64,000 bases of DNA, taken from NCBI GenBank assembly GCA_003344405.1, contig NOWV01000013.1, forward strand, positions 310,001 to 374,000, in the 5' to 3' direction. The notes under the pieces are model-generated. The model was not told where the DNA came from, made no database searches, and worked only from the letters and a program-made list of their open reading frames with translations. A program made the translations under genes and the position numbers. The first letter of the stretch is position 1. Each line of letters opens with the position of its first letter. Shown piece after piece: positions 7,701 through 16,730 of this stretch. The stretch comes from Trichoplax sp. H2 (Eukaryota).

Positions 7701-10030
7701 TTGTAAATACTTTTAGGGTAATTATTTGCAATATTTTACATTTATTAATATTACGTACATCTCTCTTGAATAGCCTTAGATTCCTAGAGTTTAAAGAGGA
7801 TCAGAAAAATCACTGTCAAGCACTTAAATCAGTTCAAGGTTCCTTACTTTAAATGTAGTATAACGCAGTGACGAAATTCATAAAGTAATCAGCTGACTAC
7901 ATAAGATTGAATGTTGTCTCTACATGCCTTGTCAATATAAGATGAATGATTTATCTCGTCTTAACTTTACTTAGGACATTATTATAGGATCTGTGATATA
8001 ATATAATCTATTGCACATTTGCGCAAAAGTACGTTATCTCAACGAGTGCAATACCAATCATCCAGGAGGCAAGATACAGTATTTACGACAGAGTTTAAGC
8101 ATAAAATGATGATCAGATACTCTAAGTATCATAGGAGTAAAAATAGCGAATCATTATATACAGTCAAGCTATTATCGTAATTATAAAGATAGAAGAATTT
8201 CTTGCTATAATATTTGTAACGTCAATTTATAAGTACTATACGCATAGTAATTTTACCTGCGTAGTTTTAGTAGCTGTCGAATTCTGTAATCTAGCTTCTT
8301 TTACAATTGATTCGGCAGGGTGATTGGGGTTAATAAATGTTAGCTTTTGCGAGCTCAAATTGCGACTAATTATATCCTCATTTTCGGCTGTATCAGGGTC
8401 TGTTGCTGTGCGATCCGTTAACTGTTCCAGAGGTTTCGGAGTACCATAAAATTTGGCGATGATACAGGCTCTTATTTTATCCAACATTGCTCGAACCTGG
8501 TAAATCCTCTACATAATTAAATCAATTTGCTGTTAGAAAACCATCGCATAAGACGGGTTGAATTGTAATCTGATTCACTATCGTCTATTGCACAAATCTC
8601 ATGCAACATTAGTCAATAATTAAGCTATTGCTTAATCTTCCAAGGATCAGTAAAGGGCTTTAATTACAACTTAATTGTAAGAAATGTTATATCCCACAAA
8701 CATGGTGGCAACTGTTATTCAATAGAAATGATCAATATGGTTTTGCAGGAGCATTTACGCATGGTACTCCTTGGGTTGATTACATCTGATTCAATAATAA
8801 TATACTTCGTATATAGGAATTGATCAGGTAGGACGATATTTAATTTGTCGTTACATTTTGTATATGATTGGATAAAAGTCGCAGGTACTGTTAATATAGC
8901 TAAAAGATAACTCGATTCTTGATTGGCTCTGCTGATATCAATGTACATTTAGCATAAGGATTATCATGAAAAGTTTGTTGAAATCTACGAGGGATAAAGT
9001 CCATTCTGTTCATCATTCGGTACATGACTGAGTATAATCACCATTGCCGTTAGTGTATAGTGAGCAAAAGTTAAGTTTATGCTCGAGTAATGGCAGTATA
9101 TAAAGAAAACATTTATGCAGGATATTGATGAAATACAGGAGTATCAATCTCTAATCATTTAATCCGCTTCATTCACTAATTTCTAAATTAAGGTGTAGGA
9201 TTGAAATTTTAATCACGTCAGTATAGCAATATGACAATTGCCTAATAGTAGCTTGCCTTGCCATTAGCTTTTTGGTGACTAGAATTATTCGATATCATAT
9301 AGATAGTTTAAGTTAAGAAGAACATAGTGTCGATTTACACCTCATTTACTCTTTTCATGAAAACGTAGACACTAAAAGGAAGGGATATCGTTTCAGTTTT
9401 GTGAGAATATCAATATCGAACGTCAGTTCCATGTTGATTTACACCGATCATGAGTTAACCTTAATTAACGCACTTACTTGATCAATAGTAGCGATTTCCC
9501 TCTCCTTATATCGTAATTCTGTATCAAACTGGTTGGTGATAATATCCTCAATCTTCTGTATTGCTAATTCCTTCGCTCCTAAACACATAGTAGATACGAA
9601 GATAGAAGATTATGAGAAGTCATGAGCCAGTAACTAGTGGTTTTCCCGCCATGATAACATCACTCCTGATAGCATAAAAGGATACGGAAATACACTCATA
9701 GCTATTCAATCGCTTTATCCCTGGCTACAATAATAATATTGACTAGGTGATATCGATAAATTTCATCCTAGGAGATACTACGATCACTAAGTTAATGCGC
9801 TAAAAAGTAGAGCTGCTATCCTAATTGCAAGTTGAGCTAGTTGTTAACGTTTTCACCATGGAGATAAACAGTATTCAGATTCAATCATGGAAAGAAATTA
9901 TCTCAACAGTAACAAGGCTAGAAAGTACAGAAATACACAGTAAACAGGTCTGCAGTAGTCACTAACCAGAGTCTTCTAATCGCATTCTTTTACGGTGGTA
10001 ATTGACATCTTCATAATCAGGATCAGCCAT
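4778..10030 (-). CDS. YEATS2: YEATS domain-containing protein 2 (ATAC complex acyl-lysine reader); multi-exon
   Basis: ATG at 10030 ([10 protein letters not shown]). Exons give [27 protein letters not shown], the YEATS domain ([74 protein letters not shown]), WCRQHGYTP and a C-terminal histone-fold-like [14 protein letters not shown]. Stop at 4778-4780. Confidence 0.93.
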
Positions 10031-12392
10031 TTTTTTTTTCAATCCACGCGATATATACACACACAATCGTCCAGAATTTGCTTTTATCCTATCCTAGCCA
10101 GGTTGATTATAACGTGTTCGTATCAACACGTAATAATAACTCTAATATTGCAGTAATGAATCGTCATTTGATGAGGAAGAAATGATAGTCCTGACCAAGT
10201 AGAATTAATTGGATAATTTGGCGAATAGCACTTGCAATGGCAGCTATTGCTTGCTCGAGGCAATCTCCTAAACTAGAGCTTGGAATTTGAAAGAACCTTT
10301 CCACTAGGCATGTGCATCGAGAGGGTTTGTGCTATCCAACGATTTGCAAAGTGATAGTGTACTCTATATCATGATCTATGTTATAGGACACAGTACTATC
10401 AACAGTATCAGTTCCAATCTGTATTTGCACATTCTACCAAATAGTACAAAAATAAAGGTAGAATGGGAAAGAAGATCTCGTGGAGATGCTTTTCTCGTTT
10501 CTCTATTCGGGAAAACATGGAATTATGGACTACTGTATAGGATCTAATTCAGCTGTAGTCTGTAAAATAGGAGTTACTCTAATAAAATGAAGGATACTAT
10601 AGTTCAGCTGTATTACTATTCGAGAGAAATGAAAGCAGAGATTGCTTACGCGTATATTGTAGAGCTCATTCATAGTGCTCACCAACTTGAATTGGTGCTC
10701 AAGGGTTGTTCAAAAATCTTCTCTAGCGTCTTCACTGATACCTAATGATAGAATATAATCACTGCGTTAATTTCTGCCTAGAACTACTCCTCAACCATTC
10801 TGAAAAGCCTAGTATATGTAAATAGGGTATGTAGATACTCAACGCTCTATATCGTCATTGCCAATTGGTGCTAAACCCTAAGCCAAAAAATCTCTCGGAC
10901 CTTCACTCATATAGAATTATATAATACAATCTTGACAATAATTTCTTCCATGTCTGGATAATAATTCCTAGTCTATAAAGTGATACTTACCTAACTATAC
11001 TAAAAAGAACGCTAGAATGATATAAATATAGTGCAAAATAAATGCATTAGACGTACCCGGGAGATGCATGTATGATAACAAATTATTTCGACGTTGTCTT
11101 GAAAAACTCTCAATGGGTAACGTGATCATGGATTGCTGCTATACTAATATCCAAACAAGGATATGTAATAATATAGTATAATTATTGCACTAATTATCGT
11201 CTGACAATACTCCTGGCCAATAGCAAAAAGTCTGCTATACGTAGTTATAGACGGAAAAATAAATGGCTTATACGTATTAATTATTAACCAATAGCTAATA
11301 TCATCTCAATAGCGGAATAACGGTAATATAGATATCATCCAATGCTTCTTGGGCTGTGAAGCACACTGTAGTCGTAAATAATCATGTAGAGGATAATCTA
11401 CAATAAAATATATGGAAATAAAGTTGACTATAGAAAATATAATAATTTTAGGGTAGAATATATGGAAATAAAGTTTGTAGAGTATAGAATAATTCCTAAT
11501 TGTATCTAGACTACTATGGTAGGCCGTACTTACGAGCAGTCATCTCAATCAAAATTCAATAACTATTTTTTACAATACGATATGCAAACTACTGTATAGC
11601 GCTCCATATAATATCGACTTGTATTGAATACTATCAAAACCTTTCAAATTTGACGCATTTAAGCTAAAATAACTAATGCGAGAGTACAGAAATACGTTAT
11701 GTAATACTAGTAACAAATTGTAAGGGAATTCCAGCATACCTCATTGCATGGTAAATACGCAGAAAATAAAAACTGCTTCAAGAAATTTTTTTAAAATTGG
11801 TGTTTAATAAGTAATAATTGATATGAAGGCAATACCTTCCCATACATTGTCCCTAACTAAAATGGTATACTTGCATATGTTCATGTGTAAACACCTTGGA
11901 TATTATATCAGTACGTGTATGTTAATAAAACATTTTTTACTGCTACAGCGCATTCAATAATAAATTGACTATGTTACAAATATATAAATAGACCAATCGT
12001 TATAATACATTAGATAAAATGATAATTATCGAAACCAAGAGCAGGTAATAGTTTTAAAATCACATAAAAGCATCGTTTAAGAGTTTAAATGTCCTTGTTA
12101 AACTCATTTCCAAAAGCACCACATACAGGTATGTAAGCGCATATATTACATTGAAACGATGCTGATACACTATAATACAAAAACTGTTTATTTTTTAAAA
12201 AGCTGCACCGCAAAATATGCCTTCGCGCCAATCAACAAATGCAGCATGTTAAGAATGCATTACGCGATTCTAATTTCACTACTGTATTGTATCCACTAGT
12301 TGAAACTTTGAGTATTGTATAAATGTTGTGTTTGTGTTTACTCGATAGTTGAAAAGTGCACTCTTGAAGGTCAAGATAATCATCTCAGCTAG

Positions 12393-15051
12393 CTAATCGT
12401 CTACAGCTGGATCAAACGAACCCTATAAAAGATCACATTGACAAGTTTATCCAATTAGAATCAATAATACATAATTTATTAAAGCGAGAAATATTCGTGG
12501 CTAAGTTTGTCCACTAACCCATCCTCCTTGCATGATAATCCATTCAGTAAATGTGTCATGTATAAACTTTTTAGTGTGTTTCTTGACTTTGTCCGCTAAG
12601 TCACCAATATTACCCCAAGCAGAAATGATACTTCCACTTAAATCTAAAACGGTAGCGATTTGGGCCATTTGCTCGGGCGAGGATAATTCAGGCGAACCAA
12701 CTACCTCTACAAGAGGAAGAAATAATAGATTACTGAATATTCTATACAACATCTTGTGTAAATTACTTAGCTAAATAACTTAGTAAGACATTTCAAATAA
12801 AGTTATGTTGCAATCTCTTTGAAAAATTTATACAAATAACGGTACTGTTGTGGTAGAAAGGCTACCAGGGGATTTAATAGTGCAACGTCACAAAAAGTGA
12901 CCAATGTACCTGCATTTGATGTTTTACGGATAGCCTCACTGGCCATTTTCTGAAATCGTTTGTATGTTTTCTTTTTTGTAGTATAAGAGCAGTTGCCAAG
13001 CCCCATATCGGCGAGTCTTAAATCATTTCTCTCAGAAAGAGCTGCTAGCCATTGAGCAACATACATCATTTTCTTATCTTCTTCGCTTCCTTCTACAGGG
13101 CTTCCTCTTTCACTGTTGCATGAACTGTCTCTAGATACTTGTCTAAGCATAGACCATTTACTACGCGTTAATTCAGCTGGTACCGCAGTTATTCCTATCA
13201 ATTTCGTCATCGATTTTATGGATTAATATCGCATTTTATTTTCTATAATGGATATTATTGACTACTGAGCATGTTGAATCTCAATTAGATAAAGTGGATA
13301 TTAATTTAATAGTAACTTTTAGCGACTTTAAAAAATAACTGGCATTTCACTTTACATCATAGAGACTGTACTTTATAAAGATTATAGTATAGTAGCGTGA
13401 AAATGAATAGAAATCAATCAATGAATGCTAATGGTAAATAAATTTTATAGATACATCCTACTGATACAGTATAAGCATATATAGTAGTGGAAATGCATAA
13501 TAAAAGCATTTGATGGACTGTATTTTGATGCCTACTTTCTGGTATAATCTCTCTACATATTATTTAATAATAGTTAGAATCGTACCATTGCCTTCACTTT
13601 TCTTCGTCTCTTCGGTGCTAATCCCTGCTGTGGGTTCTGTATCATCTTCAGCTGAGATACCATACTGATAGAAATTAGAGCGATCGCCATTCCTCCAACT
13701 TTCACTTATTTCATTCTTTTGTACTATAGCTAATGACGCAATCAATACATCAGAACAATATCAATCAATATTTCACGGCGTTTTATACATTAACAATCAA
13801 TCAGCTCAACAATCACTTATCTATGCGGAAAAGGTAATTTAAAACTTAAAACTTAAATGGTTCATTGCCGGATAAGCAACATTTCCGATTGTGTTATTCG
13901 ATAGTAATACGTCTAAATATGTGTTATTGTACGTATACTACAGTAAGTAGACTTTCAAAATAATAACTAAATTGTGTCTATATCTTATCAGTATAGTTAT
14001 TATGGTGTAAACAAATAGCATTAAATGGTTAATCTACAGATTAACGATAGTAAAAACTAGAAAGTATAGAATAAATCCTCATGGCAAAACCATGCAATAT
14101 CCTATTAGATAACAAAATTTAAAAACAGCTTTACTGTGCCGTGATTTATCATCGGAAACGGGGATTATTTTTAAGAGGTAATTTTTAACGATGAATCAAG
14201 ACAACTTTATTCTCTAAAATGGTAATTTAATACTGGAGGTAACTTGTAATCATTGTTGATAGTAATATCATAACTGTTTTAATGGTGTGGCAGCTAATTG
14301 TATCTGTCTAGTTTATGTTAACGTTGCAAGGTGAGCAGGTGATTGTACAGCGTTCTTTAAAATGATATAATAATCACAAGATGATTCCCCATGTTACTAC
14401 TGTACGTTGACAATACTACCGTATAGGCCAATTAGTTTATTTTAGTACGGGATATCAATTACCTTGACCTGTAGGTGATTGTGGCTGATCAACTTTAGAG
14501 TCGGTTCGGTTAATGAGGGCAGAAAGCTTTTTGACTTTCTTCCAATTCAAAGTTAGCTTACTTTTTCTTCTCGAAGAAGTACCAGAACCAGAGCGCTCTC
14601 TCCTTGACGCAGATCCAGAGCGTTCTCTCTTTGACGCAGATCCAGAGCGTTCTCTCTTTGACGCAGATCCAGAGCGTTCTCGCTTTGATGCGGAGCCAGA
14701 ACTTTCTCGCTTTGATGCGGAGCCAGAACTTTCTCTCTTTGACGCAGAACTGGAACGTTCCCTGGCTGTGGTAGTATTGCTACTGAAATTTCTATAACCA
14801 ATGACTTCGACGCTAGCACTTGTTCGAGGCGGATATACCGATGGCATTGATGCCGAGACCTCTCTAATTTCGGTACGACGTATACCGCCACCAACGGAGC
14901 TGTTAACGGAAGATCTACTCACTGCTGCATGATTATAATTATCAGCAGTTTCCAATTTAAGCTTTAGAAAGTTTTCTAATACTTTACTAATTTGTCGACG
15001 AGATTGTTTTTTATCCTCATCAGAGGGTTTTCTTCGCGTGATGGAAGACAT
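12393..15051 (-). CDS. Divergent BCL-2 family protein (BCL-G/BCL2L12/BFK-like architecture), ~409 aa, no C-terminal TM
   Basis: Five phase-compatible GT-AG exons: 15051-14463, 13723-13586, 13194-12910, 12706-12519, 12422-12393 (1230 nt). BH4-like ISKVLENFLKLKL, BH3-like VAQWLAALSERND, BH2 FTEWIIMQGGW followed by a phase-0 intron directly after GGW. Ends GSFDPAVDD*. Confidence 0.78.
14585..14760 (-). repeat. 27-bp coding tandem repeat (~6.5 copies) encoding (KRE[R/S]SGSAS)n
   Basis: Plus-strand unit GATCCAGAGCGTTCTCTCTTTGACGCA repeated with small variants. Confidence 0.95.
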
Positions 15052-15399
15052 GGTAGTTCAACTATTGCCAGTCTAAAAGTACAGGCTAATTGAGTTAAGA
15101 CACGTCTGCCCATACAACGTATTTGTATACTGTAGTACCTTCAAGACGTCAAATTGACCAGAAAATACGAAAGTCTGCAAGAGCCCACAGAATTTTCAAC
15201 TATGATTAAATTGTCTACAACCGAATGAAAGTGATGCAAAATATTAAATATCCATCCTTTACTACGTTAATGACACACGTTATAAGTGTGCACCTGCAGT
15301 AGATAAAAACGTGGACAAGGTGACTGAATACAATCAAAAGATTATTTTTCTTTCAAGATTAGGTGATGGGCGAGTCATGATCCTATTCTAAATCGGTTG

Positions 15400-16400
15400 T
15401 ATAAAGTTTACAAAGTCAAGAAATACCTGTATGTAGTCAACCGATGATAGTTGGCAAGGTAATCTGCTGACAGAATGTGATTTCTCTCCCTTCTCTTTCT
15501 GTAGTACTGTCCATGGATTGAAAATGATTGAAAACAAGGTCTATTAGTCACCATGCTCAACTTGAACTCGAATACTCGTATACTGTCAATCTATTGTACC
15601 AATGTATCTGGATAAAGTATGGACGATTTCAAGACAGTACTATCGAAAGGTTATTTTACGAGCATTTTAATATCAGCTTAGAGACAAGCCCTGATCGTGC
15701 TCCGTATCGCCTTAAAATAAGGTCAAGACATACCTGTATGTATGCAGTCAACCGATGGGGATTGGTAGCGTAATCTAGCTACAGCGTGCAAACTTTGTAT
15801 TCTCTCTTCTTTTTCCTAGAAAATCAATCAATCTGAATAGTAAGCTTCCATACGTTAACAACATACGAGTGTCGACTGTACAGCGTGTAAAGTGTAGACG
15901 AAGTATCGACGATTGCAGTACTATCAAGAGATTCTTTATTGACTATCCGTCGATCGATGAGGTCTATTTAGTTGATCCGTCTGATGTACATCGCCTTAAC
16001 TAATACACTATTAAGATGAAGAAGAAAGTCTTAACCTACCTAGATGTGGTTAATTGACCAACAACGATGAGTAAAGGATTAATTGAATTCGATCACCGCG
16101 TTTAATCACTCAGTCTCTTGTCTTTCCGTAGCTGATGGATTGAAATGATTGAAAACAGTAGTCTCAATGCCAAGTTATACTACGTTAACAACACCCTAGA
16201 ATAGTTTGTAAAGAAAGCATCGACAATTACATACACTACAATGCGATCAAGCGATGATTGAATTCAAAATCCATTTCTAGTATACTGTACATATCGCCTT
16301 GAAGGCATACCTGTTCAAGGTAAATTCAACAAGATCACCAGCTGAATAGAGTGGTAAATCTCTCTTCTGGCGTCGGGTGTCAAAGGATCAATTCAATCGT
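15400..16400 (-). repeat. Four degenerate ~300-bp units, each carrying an exon-like segment with a 5' splice site
   Basis: Recurrent ATCGCCTT (~15707, 15991, 16293) and TACCT(G/A) (= minus-strand AG|GTA at ~15425, 15732, 16038, 16309). Units 1 and 2 share GTCAACCGATG. Confidence 0.65.
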
Positions 16401-16461
16401 AGTTGATTACCTAGGATGAATCAATCATTTAGAGATGATTATCACACCCAGCTACACTGTA

Positions 16462-16730
16462 GGGGAGCTACGCGTATATTGGACACCAATCACTGCCAAT
16501 ATGGATGATGAAAATTAAGCCTTGAGTAAGGAATGTTTGCAGTTTATTTTCTTCCACCGCCGCCGAATGGATAGAGGGCTTAGATGGGCTTGTCGGGGAG
16601 CTACGCGTATATTGGACACCAATCACTGCCAATATGGATGATGAAAATTAAGCCTTGAGTAAGGAATGTTTGTAGTTTATTTTCTTCCACCGCCGCCGAA
16701 TGGATGGAGGGCTTAGATGGGCTTGTCGGG
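16462..16730. repeat. Near-perfect 133-bp tandem duplication
   Basis: GGGGAGCTACGCGTATATTGGACACC...GGGCTTGTC begins at 16462 and again at 16595; I see two substitutions. Confidence 0.95.

What the first reader, a model, noticed from the sequence alone, without database searches (positions are those of the whole stretch)
12393..15051. Divergent BCL-2-family gene with BCL-G/BCL2L12-like architecture and no TM anchor
Seen: five clean exons splice to ~409 aa with an N-terminal BH4-like helix, a long disordered insert, a non-canonical BH3 (LAALSE in place of LxxxGD), no NWGR BH1, an intact BH2 (WIIMQGGW) and an acidic 9-aa tail with no membrane anchor. Known: an intron right after the BH2 GGW is typical of BCL-2 genes, and this BH3+BH2, BH1-less, TM-less layout is that of vertebrate BCL2L14/BCL2L12/BCL2L15. 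Inference: an overlooked member of that divergent clade in an early-branching animal, which would push its origin far back.
Basis: partly seen in the sequence, partly recalled or inferred. Interest (0 to 1): 0.8.

Follow-up and report, generated by a model that had tools for sequence, protein, structure and literature searches.

The report
Overlooked fifth Bcl-2 relative in Trichoplax
This expressed gene of the very simple animal Trichoplax encodes a divergent, anchor-less relative of the Bcl-2 cell-death regulators that published inventories of the animal (four members) do not list, and its closest relatives found are long uncharacterised proteins of clams, a tubeworm and a ribbon worm.

Summary
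RNA contigs from 3 of 4 runs laid confirm all four coding introns. The spliced product is identical to the database protein TrispH2_002143 of Trichoplax sp. H2 (411 aa, "hypothetical"). The last exon runs straight into its 3'UTR, so no alternative exon with a membrane anchor was seen.

Bcl-2 homology is real but indirect:
- Trichoplax alone gives only a sub-threshold Pfam BH2 match.
- Its C-terminal domain matches (hhalign 98.3 %) a family of 712-898 aa proteins from bivalves, an annelid and a nemertean.
- That family's profile hits Bcl-xL and Bax at about 1e-7, from BH3 to BH2.
- The intron directly after the GGW codon is the family's hallmark.

Family-wide features are a conserved N-terminal helix, a very long Ser/Arg-rich linker, Gln in place of the BH1 Arg, an acidic tail and no anchor. 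A complex prediction docks the N-terminal helix onto the core where helix 1 would sit (0.67 against 0.02 for the best control). AlphaFold models were poor.

Kinship with BCL2L14/15, and with BNIP5, rests only on language-model look-alikes, so it is a lead. No tree was possible. Three papers count four Trichoplax Bcl-2 proteins, so this would be a fifth.

The parts
14463..15051 (-). Coding exon 1 (residues 1-196 and the first base of codon 197). It holds the N-terminal helix, the Ser/Arg-rich repeats and the basic helix.
   Evidence: The ORF has ATG at 15051 and an in-frame TGA at 15060-15058. The donor g|gtaatt joins to 13729 in RNA contigs of X3, X6 and X9. The splice equals P0006.
14920..15021 (-). 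N-terminal amphipathic helix (residues 11-44, core ISKVLENFLKLKLE), the candidate helix 1 or BH4-position helix.
   Evidence: AF2 predicts a helix with pLDDT 76-84 per 10-residue block over residues 11-30. The motif [IVL]LE.[FY]L is present in 11 of 11 family proteins. It docks on residues 275-411 with ipSAE 0.67 against a best control of 0.02. Pfam BH4 gave no hit.
14583..14748 (-). 27-nt tandem repeat, 6.1 copies, encoding SGSASKRE(R/S) units. It is part of the roughly 240-residue disordered linker.
   Evidence: TRF gives period 27 and 91 % matches. T. adhaerens has one 9-aa unit fewer, 402 against 411 aa. There are 5 RxRxx[ST] sites at residues 97-151.
14500..14568 (-). Basic amphipathic helix (residues 162-184, RRKSKLTLNWKKVKKLSALINR).
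   Evidence: AF2 predicts a helix at 164-184. A counterpart, (G)RKKKSMFKKAQ..., occurs in the lophotrochozoan relatives: 10 of 11 family proteins (the two Trichoplax ones included) by regex, and the eleventh (P0012) by eye.
13586..13729 (-). Coding exon 2 (disordered, acidic).
Evidence: RNA joints 13729|14463 and 13193/4|13585/6.
12910..13194 (-). Coding exon 3 (BH3-like helix and helix 4).
   Evidence: RNA joints. An unnamed close relative, P0007, is 65 % identical over it.
13004..13084 (-). BH3-like helix (residues 282-308, ...YVAQWLAALSERNDL...), with LAALSE where LxxxGD would be.
   Evidence: AF2 predicts a helix at 282-308. MAFFT aligns it with the relatives' L-R-x-x-(A/G)-D helix, which HMMER aligns with the BH3 of Bcl-xL. 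The spacing to the TYxxF motif is the same 27 residues. The register against a second BH3-like motif of the relatives is ambiguous.
12519..12706 (-). Coding exon 4 (helices 5 to 7/8, ending on the TGG of GGW).
   Evidence: Pfam PF00452 E 0.009 on BH2. phmmer to Dreissena P0010 E 1.2e-5 against 1.84 billion representatives. hhalign to the lophotrochozoan profile 98.3 %.
12615..12677 (-). Helix 5 with the degenerate BH1 (PEQMAQIATVLDLSGSIISAW). QMAQ sits where Bcl-xL has NWGR.
   Evidence: The relatives have GWAQ or EMAQ there. In the profile-to-Bcl-xL alignment g-w-a-q pairs with N-W-G-R.
12519..12542 (-). BH2 core, WIIMQGGW (residues 395-402).
   Evidence: W395, I396, Q399, G400, G401 and W402 are invariant in alignment A1. 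It matches Pfam PF00452 positions 71-100.
12423..12518 (-). The 96-nt BH2-splitting intron, phase 0, directly after the TGG codon.
   Evidence: GTTAGT..TTATAG. Spliced in X3, X6 and X9. The same position is described for all four published trBcl-2-like genes (passages).
11802..12422 (-). Last exon: 9 codons (GSFDPAVDD), TAG at 12395-12393, then about 590 nt of 3'UTR.
   Evidence: RNA contigs run unbroken from 12421 down to 11802, 11806 and 11886. No joint leads from 12519 to any other acceptor.
15052..16491 (-). Spliced non-coding 5' leader of at least 596 nt. Its exons are 16491-16311, 16195-16040, 15815-15734, 15506-15427, 15214-15139 and 15072-15052. The 66-nt intron 15073-15138 is optional.
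   Evidence: RNA joints. The introns are GT..AG. There are stops in all three frames and one uATG.

Best explanation
What it is: a transcribed, correctly spliced gene for a soluble, highly divergent Bcl-2 homologue. It would be a fifth member in Trichoplax, beside the four published ones.

Anatomy: the Bcl-2 core is split in the sequence. An N-terminal amphipathic helix at the BH4/helix-1 position is followed by about 240 disordered, Ser/Arg-rich residues, which include five RxRxxS/T sites and a basic helix. Then comes a compact C-terminal domain with a BH3-like helix 2, helix 4, helix 5 with a degenerate BH1, helix 6 and BH2. It ends in a short acidic tail instead of a membrane anchor.

Relatives: it belongs to a family with the same layout in bivalves, an annelid and a nemertean.

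How it probably works (inferred, not shown):
- The BH1 arginine that canonical family members use to hold a partner's BH3 aspartate is glutamine throughout this family, and there is no anchor.
- The protein is therefore more likely a cytosolic BH3 donor or sensor than a groove-type receptor or a pore former.
- The long tether is the likely control point. Phosphorylation or cleavage there would loosen helix 1 and expose the BH3-like helix to the grooves of the canonical Trichoplax proteins.
- This would resemble the way BID, BCL-G and BNIP5 act in vertebrates.
For: Gene and expression:
- Four coding introns are each bridged in 3 of 4 runs laid.
- The splice is identical to P0006.
- The T. adhaerens orthologue is 98 % identical over exon 4 and 99 % over the full length. 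Unnamed close relatives are 65-82 % identical on exons 3 and 4.

Homology:
- phmmer of the C-terminal 166 aa against 1.84 billion representatives gave 4 hits at E <= 0.001. Three are close fragments and one is Dreissena P0010 at 1.2e-5.
- A placozoan-only profile against a lophotrochozoan-only profile gave hhalign 98.3 %, E 2.3e-14, over 75 columns.
- The lophotrochozoan profile against the PDB gave Bcl-xL at 2e-7 and 96 sequences at E <= 0.01, spanning BH3 to BH2. The joint profile gave 5.8e-7.
- PF00452 is the best Pfam family in 8 of 8 full-length lophotrochozoan members (E 1e-7 to 4e-4) and is above the curated cut-off in 1 of 8.
- The direct Pfam match of Trichoplax exon 4 on BH2 has E 0.009.
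- The intron directly after the GGW codon matches the position published for the family.

Fold and helix 1:
- ESMFold2 docks residues 1-50 on residues 275-411 with ipSAE 0.67 in 3 of 3 runs, against a best control of 0.02. On that tool's calibration the mark was reached by 51 of 78 solved complexes and 2 of 108 mismatched pairs.
- The runs agree in at least 83 % of contacts and the partner pLDDT is at least 61. The pLDDT of the core is 71-72 with the helix and 41-54 in the three controls.
- The contacts join I21, V24, L25, F28, L29 and L31 to helix 2, helix 5, helix 6 and BH2.
- In the weak AF2 model, Bcl-xL 6yli_A aligns at Z 6.2, rmsd 3.6 A, over 114 residues, with model range 13-407. The N-terminal helix is therefore included as helix 1.

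No anchor: the maximum 19-residue hydropathy is 1.23 or less in all 9 full-length members tested.

Mechanism leads: Gln replaces the BH1 Arg in all members. Published work on the phosphorylated helix 1-helix 2 loop of BCL2 (passages) and on the BNIP5 and Bcl-G BH3s acting on Bak (preprint sections) gives the analogy.
Against: - Trichoplax alone does not reach any curated threshold. PF00452 scores 14-17 bits against a cut-off of 31.4, and a placozoan-only profile finds nothing in the PDB at E <= 10. The link to Bcl-2 is therefore transitive.
- Both AlphaFold runs were poor, with mean pLDDT 43.7 and 44.8.
- Foldseek found nothing at E <= 0.001.
- The full VIA search is topped by unrelated helical bundles at Z up to 8.9. 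Z 6.2 for Bcl-xL lies within helical noise.
- The complex pass may reflect the model's memory of solved Bcl-2 folds, and its calibration does not cover pieces of one chain.
- The BH3-like helix lacks the Gly-Asp pair and has Asn at the fourth hydrophobic position.
- Which of the relatives' two BH3-like motifs it corresponds to is unresolved.
- No binding, localisation or death assay exists, so every functional step is inference.
Confidence: 0.72

Rival explanations
1. It is a groove-type, pro-survival-like receptor. The folded core would sequester the BH3 of trBak or trBax in the cytosol, as Bcl-xL does, and the long loop would only tune this.
For: The best PDB matches of the family profile are Bcl-xL and Bcl-2, ahead of Bax. 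All core helices from BH3 to BH2 are alignable. A BH4-position helix is a feature of the multi-motif members (passages).
Against: The BH1 Arg that pairs with the BH3 Asp is Gln in every member, and Trichoplax also lacks the BH1 Trp. There is no membrane anchor. The nearest language-model clusters are BCL2L14, BCL2L15 and BNIP5, not pro-survival members (leads only).
Confidence: 0.13
2. The Bcl-2-like domain has been redeployed for a task outside the mitochondrial death pathway, for example a nuclear, RNA-related or signalling-scaffold role. The Ser/Arg-rich repeats and basic helix would be the working parts.
For: The linker is 23 % Ser and 12 % Arg, with repeated SGSASKRER units. A conserved basic helix is shared with the relatives. 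The BH3 is non-canonical in Trichoplax.
Against: The most conserved parts across phyla are the N-terminal helix and the helix 4-BH2 core, not the linker, whose length varies from about 240 to more than 600 residues. The relatives keep a textbook BH3 pattern, I-A-x-x-L-x-x-I-(G/A)-D.
Confidence: 0.1
3. It is not a Bcl-2 homologue at all. A chance W..QGGW motif and a chance intron position would sit in an otherwise unrelated helical protein.
For: The direct Pfam score is sub-threshold. There are no direct PDB hits. No confident fold match was found.
Against: The chain Trichoplax to lophotrochozoan family (E 2.3e-14) to Bcl-xL, Bax and PF00452 (1e-7, over about 105 residues) is significant at each step. 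The intron phase and position match the family hallmark. The complex test passed with clean controls.
Confidence: 0.04
4. It is one of the four already described trBcl-2-like genes, or a mis-annotated piece of one.
For: None found. It is considered only because the four published sequences could not be fetched for a direct comparison.
Against: The four published proteins are described with BH1-BH4, a C-terminal TM motif and a single intron each (passages). This gene has four coding introns, no TM, no NWGR and 411 aa.
Confidence: 0.01

Closest known systems
Uncharacterised lophotrochozoan proteins: Dreissena polymorpha LOC127850817, Mya arenaria LOC128238246, Ruditapes philippinarum LOC132728787, Mactra antiquata ACF0H5_007776, Lamellibrachia satsuma LSAT2_024518 and Tubulanus polymorphus LOC141898714
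   Same: They share the layout. There is an N-terminal [IVL]LE.[FY]L helix and a basic RKKK...F motif in a long disordered linker. The C-terminal Bcl-2-like domain has Gln in place of the BH1 Arg and ends ...W(I/V)(I/V)xQGGW, followed by an acidic tail and no TM. hhalign gives 98.3 %.
   Different: They are two-fold longer (712-898 aa). They carry an extra, textbook BH3 motif (Y-x-x-I-A-x-x-L-x-x-I-G/A-D) about 45-60 residues before the core, which Trichoplax lacks or has merged. They keep the BH1 Trp, except in the nemertean. Trichoplax has a 14-16-residue insert between helices 4 and 5.
Vertebrate BCL2L14 (Bcl-G) and BCL2L15 (Bfk)
   Same: They have BH3 plus BH2, a weak or absent BH1 and no TM. 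BCL2L15 is described as lacking BH1 and BH4 (passage). They are the nearest named clusters by language-model features for both the Trichoplax and the Dreissena domain, at 0.82-0.88.
   Different: Kinship is untested, because no sequences were obtainable, and the scores are under the tool's 0.9 bar. The Trichoplax family has a BH4-position helix and a far longer linker.
Vertebrate BNIP5 (C6orf222, Pfam PF15661)
   Same: It is a long (72 kDa) protein with two BH3-like motifs, whose BH3 acts on Bak (preprint sections read). A chordate cluster in which 16-31 % of members carry PF15661 is among the nearest by features (0.81-0.85). It is the top structural neighbour of the Atlas model of the Trichoplax domain, with TM 0.59 over 104 residues.
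   Different: No Pfam PF15661 hit was found for any family member at E <= 1 to 10. The evidence is a lead only.
BID
   Same: It is a soluble Bcl-2-fold protein without a TM that acts as a BH3 donor after its loop is processed. This is recalled knowledge. [quoted passage not shown]
   Different: BID has no BH2 with GGW. PF06393 did not hit. BID was not among the 60 best PDB matches listed.
Canonical Trichoplax trBcl-2L1-4, and Bcl-xL and Bcl-2
   Same: They share the BH2-splitting intron after TGG. The helix order from BH3 to BH2 is alignable. A disordered, phosphorylated loop lies between helix 1 and helix 2 in BCL2 and BCLXL.
   Different: The canonical proteins have NWGR in BH1, a TM anchor, a loop of about 60 residues and one intron. 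Here there are QMAQ, no anchor, a tether of about 240 residues and four coding introns.

Membership tests
Bcl-2 family (Bcl-2 homologous domain, Pfam PF00452) | Significant profile similarity across the BH3-BH1-BH2 region | tested here: inconclusive
   Direct: 14-17 bits against a cut-off of 31.4, on BH2 only, and a placozoan-only profile finds 0 PDB hits. Transitive: hhalign gives 98.3 % to the lophotrochozoan family, whose profile hits Bcl-xL at 2e-7 over BH3 to BH2. PF00452 is the top family in 8 of 8 members and above the cut-off in 1 of 8.
Bcl-2 family | BH2 motif (W...GGW) | tested here: met
   WIIMQGGW at residues 395-402, invariant in the family alignment. It matches PF00452 positions 71-100.
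Bcl-2 family | Phase-0 intron directly after the TGG of GGW (the BH2-splitting intron) | tested here: met
   The intron at 12423-12518 is spliced in 3 of 4 runs laid. The position is as published for trBcl-2L1-4 and most bcl-2 genes (passages).
Bcl-2 family | BH1 motif (NWGR) | tested here: not met
   QMAQ in Trichoplax and GWAQ or EMAQ in the relatives. Gln replaces the Arg. BH1 is also absent from accepted members such as BCL2L15, so its absence does not exclude family membership.
Bcl-2 family | BH3 motif (L-x-x-x-G-D on helix 2) | tested here: inconclusive
   L-A-A-L-S-E has a small residue and an acidic residue in place of G-D, and Asn at the fourth hydrophobic position. It aligns with the relatives' L-R-x-x-(A/G)-D, but the register is ambiguous.
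Bcl-2 family | Bcl-2 helical-bundle fold | tested here: inconclusive
   AF2 pLDDT was 44-45. Foldseek's best E was 2.2. Bcl-xL aligns at Z 6.2 over 114 residues, within helical noise. ESMFold2 docks the N-terminal helix on helices 2, 5, 6 and BH2 with 0.67 against 0.02.
Bcl-2 family | BH4 motif (Pfam PF02180) on helix 1 | tested here: not met
   0 Pfam families at E <= 10 for residues 1-50. The helix is BH4-like only by position and predicted packing.
Bcl-2 family | C-terminal transmembrane anchor (present in most members, not all) | tested here: not met
   Maximum 19-residue hydropathy is 1.12. The tail is GSFDPAVDD. The last exon is contiguous with its 3'UTR in RNA.
BCL2L12 / BCL2L14 / BCL2L15 group | Phylogenetic grouping with those proteins rather than with BAX/BAK/BOK or BCL2/MCL1 | not testable with these tools
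   No vertebrate sequences could be fetched. There are only Atlas look-alikes at 0.82-0.88.
BCL2L12 / BCL2L14 / BCL2L15 group | BH3 plus BH2 without BH1, BH4 or TM | tested here: inconclusive
   BH3-like, BH2, no NWGR and no TM are met. However, a conserved BH4-position helix is present, unlike the description of BCL2L15.
BNIP5 / C6orf222 (PF15661) | Match to PF15661 | tested here: not met
   PF15661 was not listed for any of P0005, P0006 and P0010-P0017 at E <= 1 or <= 10. HMMER filters drop most weak matches. The Atlas neighbours are leads only.

The most novel reading that the evidence does not exclude
The placozoan-lophotrochozoan family and vertebrate BCL2L14 (Bcl-G), BCL2L15 (Bfk) and BNIP5 would be one ancient clade, older than the split of placozoans and bilaterians. 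Its members would be soluble Bcl-2-fold proteins whose helix 1 is tied to the core by a long regulatory tether and which act as BH3 donors. Folded 'BH3-only-like' inputs to the mitochondrial pathway would then have existed before bilaterians. The regulator that Popgeorgiev et al. could not find in Trichoplax would be this gene.
Probability: 0.3. Interest if true: 0.8.

Novelty: new variant of a known kind. Interest (0 to 1): 0.62.

Why it matters
Trichoplax is used as the minimal model of Bcl-2-controlled apoptosis. The published picture is four multi-motif proteins and no BH3-only input, and trBak has been proposed to fill that role.

A fifth, soluble, anchor-less homologue with a BH3-like helix is a concrete candidate for the missing upstream regulator. 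It can be tested with the same binding and cell assays already used for the other four.

The gene also reveals a Bcl-2 sub-family shared with molluscs, an annelid and a nemertean. The lophotrochozoan survey read here names only BAX, BAK, BOK, MCL1 and three BCL-2-like clades in the passages seen. Its supplementary table could not be opened.

If the family is tied to BCL2L14, BCL2L15 and BNIP5, it would date the origin of those poorly understood vertebrate proteins.

Tried and rejected
- **AlphaFold2.** The single-sequence run and the run on a 14-row alignment both gave mean pLDDT of about 44, too poor for a fold verdict.
- **Foldseek against the PDB.** There were 0 matches at E <= 0.001. Weak rows at E 2-6 include A1, Bcl-xL and BAK.
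- **VIA-align against 48,161 representatives.** The list was topped by unrelated helical bundles at Z 7-8.9.
- **Placozoan-only profile against the PDB.** 0 hits at E <= 10.
- **Pfam BH4 on residues 1-50.** Nothing at E <= 10.
- **DUF1643.** The hit (18 bits, cut-off 22.5) was treated as chance.
- **Local HMM test of BH3 correspondence.** The question was which BH3-like motif of the relatives the Trichoplax helix matches. The best score was 2.6 bits, which is not significant.
- **Scan for an alternative TM-encoding exon.** In the minus strand of 9500-12518 there is only one hydrophobic 19-mer, near 9946, inside an intron of the next gene. No RNA joint leads to it.
- **N-terminal extension.** This was rejected because the spliced leader has stops in all frames.
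- **The genome search 'own'.** No genome is held. The four canonical paralogues could therefore not be fetched, and no tree or binding prediction with them was made.
- **Earlier scan notes.** Nothing relevant was found.
- **Paper searches.** TRIADDRAFT_63781, XP_002111124, B3RSY3, TrispH2_002143, RDD45773, EDV27128 and LOC127850817 returned 0 papers.
- **Search for BCL2L14 in invertebrates or molluscs.** None of the 15 papers listed, of 108 holding at least 3 of the 4 terms, contains the term.
- **Pfam on five neighbouring ORFs.** 0 families.
- **Uncovered RNA.** Parts of the laid stretch without RNA cover (10436-11605) were not interpreted.
- **Supplements.** The supplementary tables of the papers were not opened and may list sequences that bear on the 'not in print' claim.
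Full report
**1. The observation**

The region 12393-15051 holds a minus-strand gene. Reading the sequence gives an ATG at 15051 preceded by an in-frame TGA. Five coding exons follow, and a TAG lies at 12395-12393.

I laid contigs of four public runs on 9500-16500.
- Three runs (X3, X6, X9, from two studies; X6 and X9 are recorded as RNA-seq) each carry one contig that bridges every coding intron: 13730-14462, 13195-13585, 12707-12909 and 12423-12518.
- The fourth run (X1) covers exons and introns alike without a joint and so behaves as DNA.
- All four introns are GT..AG.

The spliced product is 411 aa. It is letter for letter the database protein P0006 (RDD45773.1, "hypothetical protein TrispH2_002143", Trichoplax sp. 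H2). The T. adhaerens orthologue is P0005 (XP_002111124.1, TRIADDRAFT_63781, "uncharacterized protein", 402 aa). It is 99 % identical overall and lacks one 9-aa repeat unit.

Every motif it listed is present where it said (see the observation check).

**2. Transcript ends**

At the 3' end, the three RNA contigs run unbroken from 12421 down to 11802-11886. The 9-codon tail (GSFDPAVDD) is therefore followed by about 590 nt of 3'UTR in the same exon, and no joint leaves 12519 for any other acceptor. The only hydrophobic 19-mer in the minus strand of the next 3 kb lies inside an intron of the next gene. No alternative last exon with a membrane anchor was seen, although contigs cannot exclude rare isoforms.

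At the 5' end, the same contigs continue upstream of the ATG through five more GT..AG introns, one of them optional. The spliced leader of at least 596 nt has stops in all frames and a single uATG. It is a long 5'UTR, not a missed N-terminal extension.

**3. Whether it is a Bcl-2 homologue**

Taken alone, Trichoplax gives weak evidence.
- PF00452 matches only BH2, at 17 bits (E 0.009) for exon 4 and 14 bits for the whole protein. The curated cut-off is 31.4.
- A profile of the placozoan sequences alone finds nothing in the PDB at E <= 10.

The decisive evidence is transitive.
- A full HMMER scan of 1.84 billion cluster representatives with the C-terminal 166 aa returned four proteins at E <= 0.001. 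Three are short fragments 65-82 % identical, from unnamed close relatives; two of them read through the same GGW|GT donor. The fourth is an 859-aa protein of the zebra mussel Dreissena polymorpha, at E 1.2e-5.
- Word-indexed searches added Mya, Ruditapes and Mactra, two unnamed bivalve-like proteins, the annelid Lamellibrachia satsuma (712 aa), the nemertean Tubulanus polymorphus (762 aa) and one truncated form.
- A placozoan-only profile aligns with a lophotrochozoan-only profile at hhalign probability 98.3 %, E 2.3e-14, with 44 % identity over 75 columns from helix 4 to BH2.
- The lophotrochozoan-only profile hits Bcl-xL at 2e-7, and 96 PDB sequences (Bcl-xL, Bcl-2, Bax) at E <= 0.01. The alignments run from BH3 to BH2. 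The joint profile gives 5.8e-7.
- PF00452 is the best Pfam family for 8 of 8 full-length lophotrochozoan members (E 1e-7 to 4e-4), but only 1 of 8 passes the curated cut-off.
- The phase-0 intron directly after the TGG of GGW is the position that Popgeorgiev et al. describe for all four known Trichoplax genes and for almost all bcl-2 homologues (passages).

I therefore regard homology as established. The protein is a very divergent member.

**4. Anatomy of the family**

All 11 family proteins examined have an N-terminal helix with the motif [IVL]LE.[FY]L. All 10 that reach the C-terminus end ...QGGW followed by a 9-19-residue acidic tail. None of the 9 full-length proteins scanned has a hydrophobic stretch above a 19-residue mean of 1.23.

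Between the N-terminal helix and the core lie about 240 residues in Trichoplax and 550-780 in the others. This region has low complexity and contains a conserved basic helix: RRKSKLTLNWKKVKK in Trichoplax and RKKKSMFKKAQ in bivalves. In Trichoplax the linker is 23 % Ser and 12 % Arg. It holds a 27-nt x 6 tandem repeat and five RxRxx[ST] sites.

At the BH1 position the family has GWAQ, with QMAQ in Trichoplax and EMAQ in the nemertean. In the profile-to-Bcl-xL alignment this quartet pairs with NWGR. The Arg is therefore replaced by an invariant Gln.

The lophotrochozoan proteins carry two BH3-like motifs:
- motif A is a textbook one (I-A-x-x-L-x-x-I-G/A-D);
- motif B lies 45-60 residues later, is L-R-x-x-(A/G)-D, and is the one HMMER aligns with the BH3 of Bcl-xL.

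The Trichoplax helix YVAQWLAALSERNDL aligns globally with motif B, at the identical spacing of 27 residues to the TYxxF motif. Locally it resembles motif A slightly better, at 2.6 bits, which is not significant. I leave this correspondence open.

**5. Fold and helix 1**

AlphaFold2 failed to give a confident model either alone (pLDDT 43.7) or with the 14-row family alignment (44.8, with the core at 53-69).
- Foldseek found nothing at E <= 0.001.
- The unbiased VIA search is topped by generic helical bundles.
- In the second look at Foldseek's 130 best chains, many Bcl-2-family chains align at Z 4.5-6.2 over 107-135 residues, with a model range of about 12-20 to 404-411. An example is Bcl-xL 6yli_A at Z 6.2, rmsd 3.6 A and 114 aligned residues, with model range 13-407. 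This means the N-terminal helix is used as helix 1. The Z value is within helical noise, so the result is only consistent, not decisive.

I used the one complex job to ask whether residues 1-50 dock on residues 275-411.
- ESMFold2 gave ipSAE 0.67 in 3 of 3 runs, against 0.02, 0.00 and 0.01 for the three controls.
- On the tool's calibration this mark was reached by 51 of 78 solved complexes and 2 of 108 mismatched pairs.
- The runs agree in at least 83 % of contacts and the partner pLDDT is at least 61.
- The pLDDT of the core is 71-72 with the helix, against 54 and 49 with the two unrelated partners; in the third control an unrelated protein stood in for the core (41).
- The hydrophobic face I21, V24, L25, F28, L29 and L31 touches helix 2 (M287-A295), helix 5 (L360-S368), helix 6 (K381-H389) and BH2 (I396-W402).

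From recalled knowledge, this is where helix 1 (BH4) packs in solved Bcl-2 proteins. The pass may stem from the model's memory of that fold, and the calibration does not cover two pieces of one chain. It shows likeness, not binding. Pfam's BH4 model does not match.

**6. What it probably does**

Nothing functional is shown, so this section is inference.

The family has no anchor and has lost the BH1 Arg that canonical members use to hold a ligand's BH3 Asp. It keeps a BH3-type helix, plus a textbook BH3 in the larger relatives. This points to a soluble BH3 donor or sensor rather than a receptor or pore former.

The conserved pairing of an N-terminal helix with a distant core, joined by a long Ser/Arg-rich tether, suggests control through that tether. 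In BCL2 and BCLXL the much shorter loop between helix 1 and helix 2 is a known multi-site phosphorylation target (passages). Phosphorylation or cleavage of the tether could release helix 1 and expose the BH3-like helix.

Vertebrate analogies come from a preprint whose abstract and sections 5-6 I read. It reports that the BH3s of BNIP5 and Bcl-G bind Bak selectively and that BNIP5 has two BH3-like motifs. [quoted passage not shown] This gene is a candidate.

**7. Comparison with the known, and novelty**

Three papers give four Bcl-2 proteins for T. adhaerens: Popgeorgiev 2020, Banjara 2022 and Banjara 2020 (passages or abstracts read). No searchable paper contains any accession or locus name of this protein or of the Dreissena relative.

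The lophotrochozoan survey names BAX, BAK, BOK, MCL1 and three BCL-2-like clades in the passages I saw. Supplementary tables could not be opened, so a listing there cannot be excluded.

The only support is the ESM Atlas. For both the Trichoplax and the Dreissena domain, the nearest clusters are:
- a chordate PF00452-bearing cluster (0.88-0.89);
- BCL2L14 (0.83-0.88);
- BCL2L15 (0.82-0.86);
- a chordate cluster partly carrying PF15661, that is C6orf222/BNIP5 (0.81-0.85).

The last of these is also the top structural neighbour of the Atlas model (TM 0.59 over 104 residues). All scores are below 0.9, which the tool calls leads only, and the two queries are homologous, so they are not independent.

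**8. Verdict**

This is a real, expressed, conserved and very divergent Bcl-2 homologue without a membrane anchor. It is annotated in databases as uncharacterised and is absent from the published Trichoplax inventory. It belongs to a previously undescribed (as far as my searches reach) long-linker sub-family shared with lophotrochozoans.

I class it as a new variant of a known kind. Confidence in the identity is high, at about 0.85. The stated explanation, which includes the BH3-donor mode of action, I rate at 0.72 overall. Most of the doubt lies in the mechanism.

Noticed in passing
window 14583-14748: The 27-nt tandem repeat (6.1 copies) inside coding exon 1 differs in copy number between Trichoplax sp. 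H2 (411 aa) and T. adhaerens (402 aa). The Ser/Arg-rich linker therefore evolves by repeat gain and loss.
   Followed up: partly
window 15052-16491: The gene has a long, five-intron 5'UTR of at least 596 nt with a single uATG. A 66-nt intron (15073-15138) is spliced in some contigs and retained in others.
   Followed up: partly
window 16458-16730: A 133-bp tandem repeat (2.1 copies, 97 % matches) sits at or near the transcript's 5' end. The RNA contigs break or loop back here, so the true start of the transcript was not found.
   Followed up: no
window 13723-13729: Two candidate AG acceptors lie 6 nt apart at exon 2. Only the upstream one (exon start 13729, giving ...TGQAIVQKN...) is seen in the RNA contigs.
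   Followed up: yes
window 9577-9966 and 9966-10291: The next gene downstream, on the minus strand, is also transcribed, with a spliced intron of 388 nt. It was not identified.
   Followed up: no
P0018 (unnamed bivalve-like protein, 780 aa): One relative keeps the N-terminal helix, the linker and both BH3-like motifs. It ends in unrelated residues just before helix 4, so it lacks BH1 and BH2. This could be a BH3-only-like isoform or an assembly or intron read-through artefact.
   Followed up: no
lophotrochozoan relatives P0011-P0016, C-termini: The acidic tails of five bivalve-type proteins (P0011-P0015) and the annelid (P0016) end in the same four residues, S-E-L-D. Trichoplax, Dreissena and the nemertean end differently. 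This could be a conserved C-terminal signal of unknown meaning.
   Followed up: no
window 13166-13614: Low-depth contigs (depth 3.7-25, against 80-130 for the spliced form) cover the whole intron 13195-13585 in the RNA runs. They could be unspliced precursor or trace DNA.
   Followed up: no
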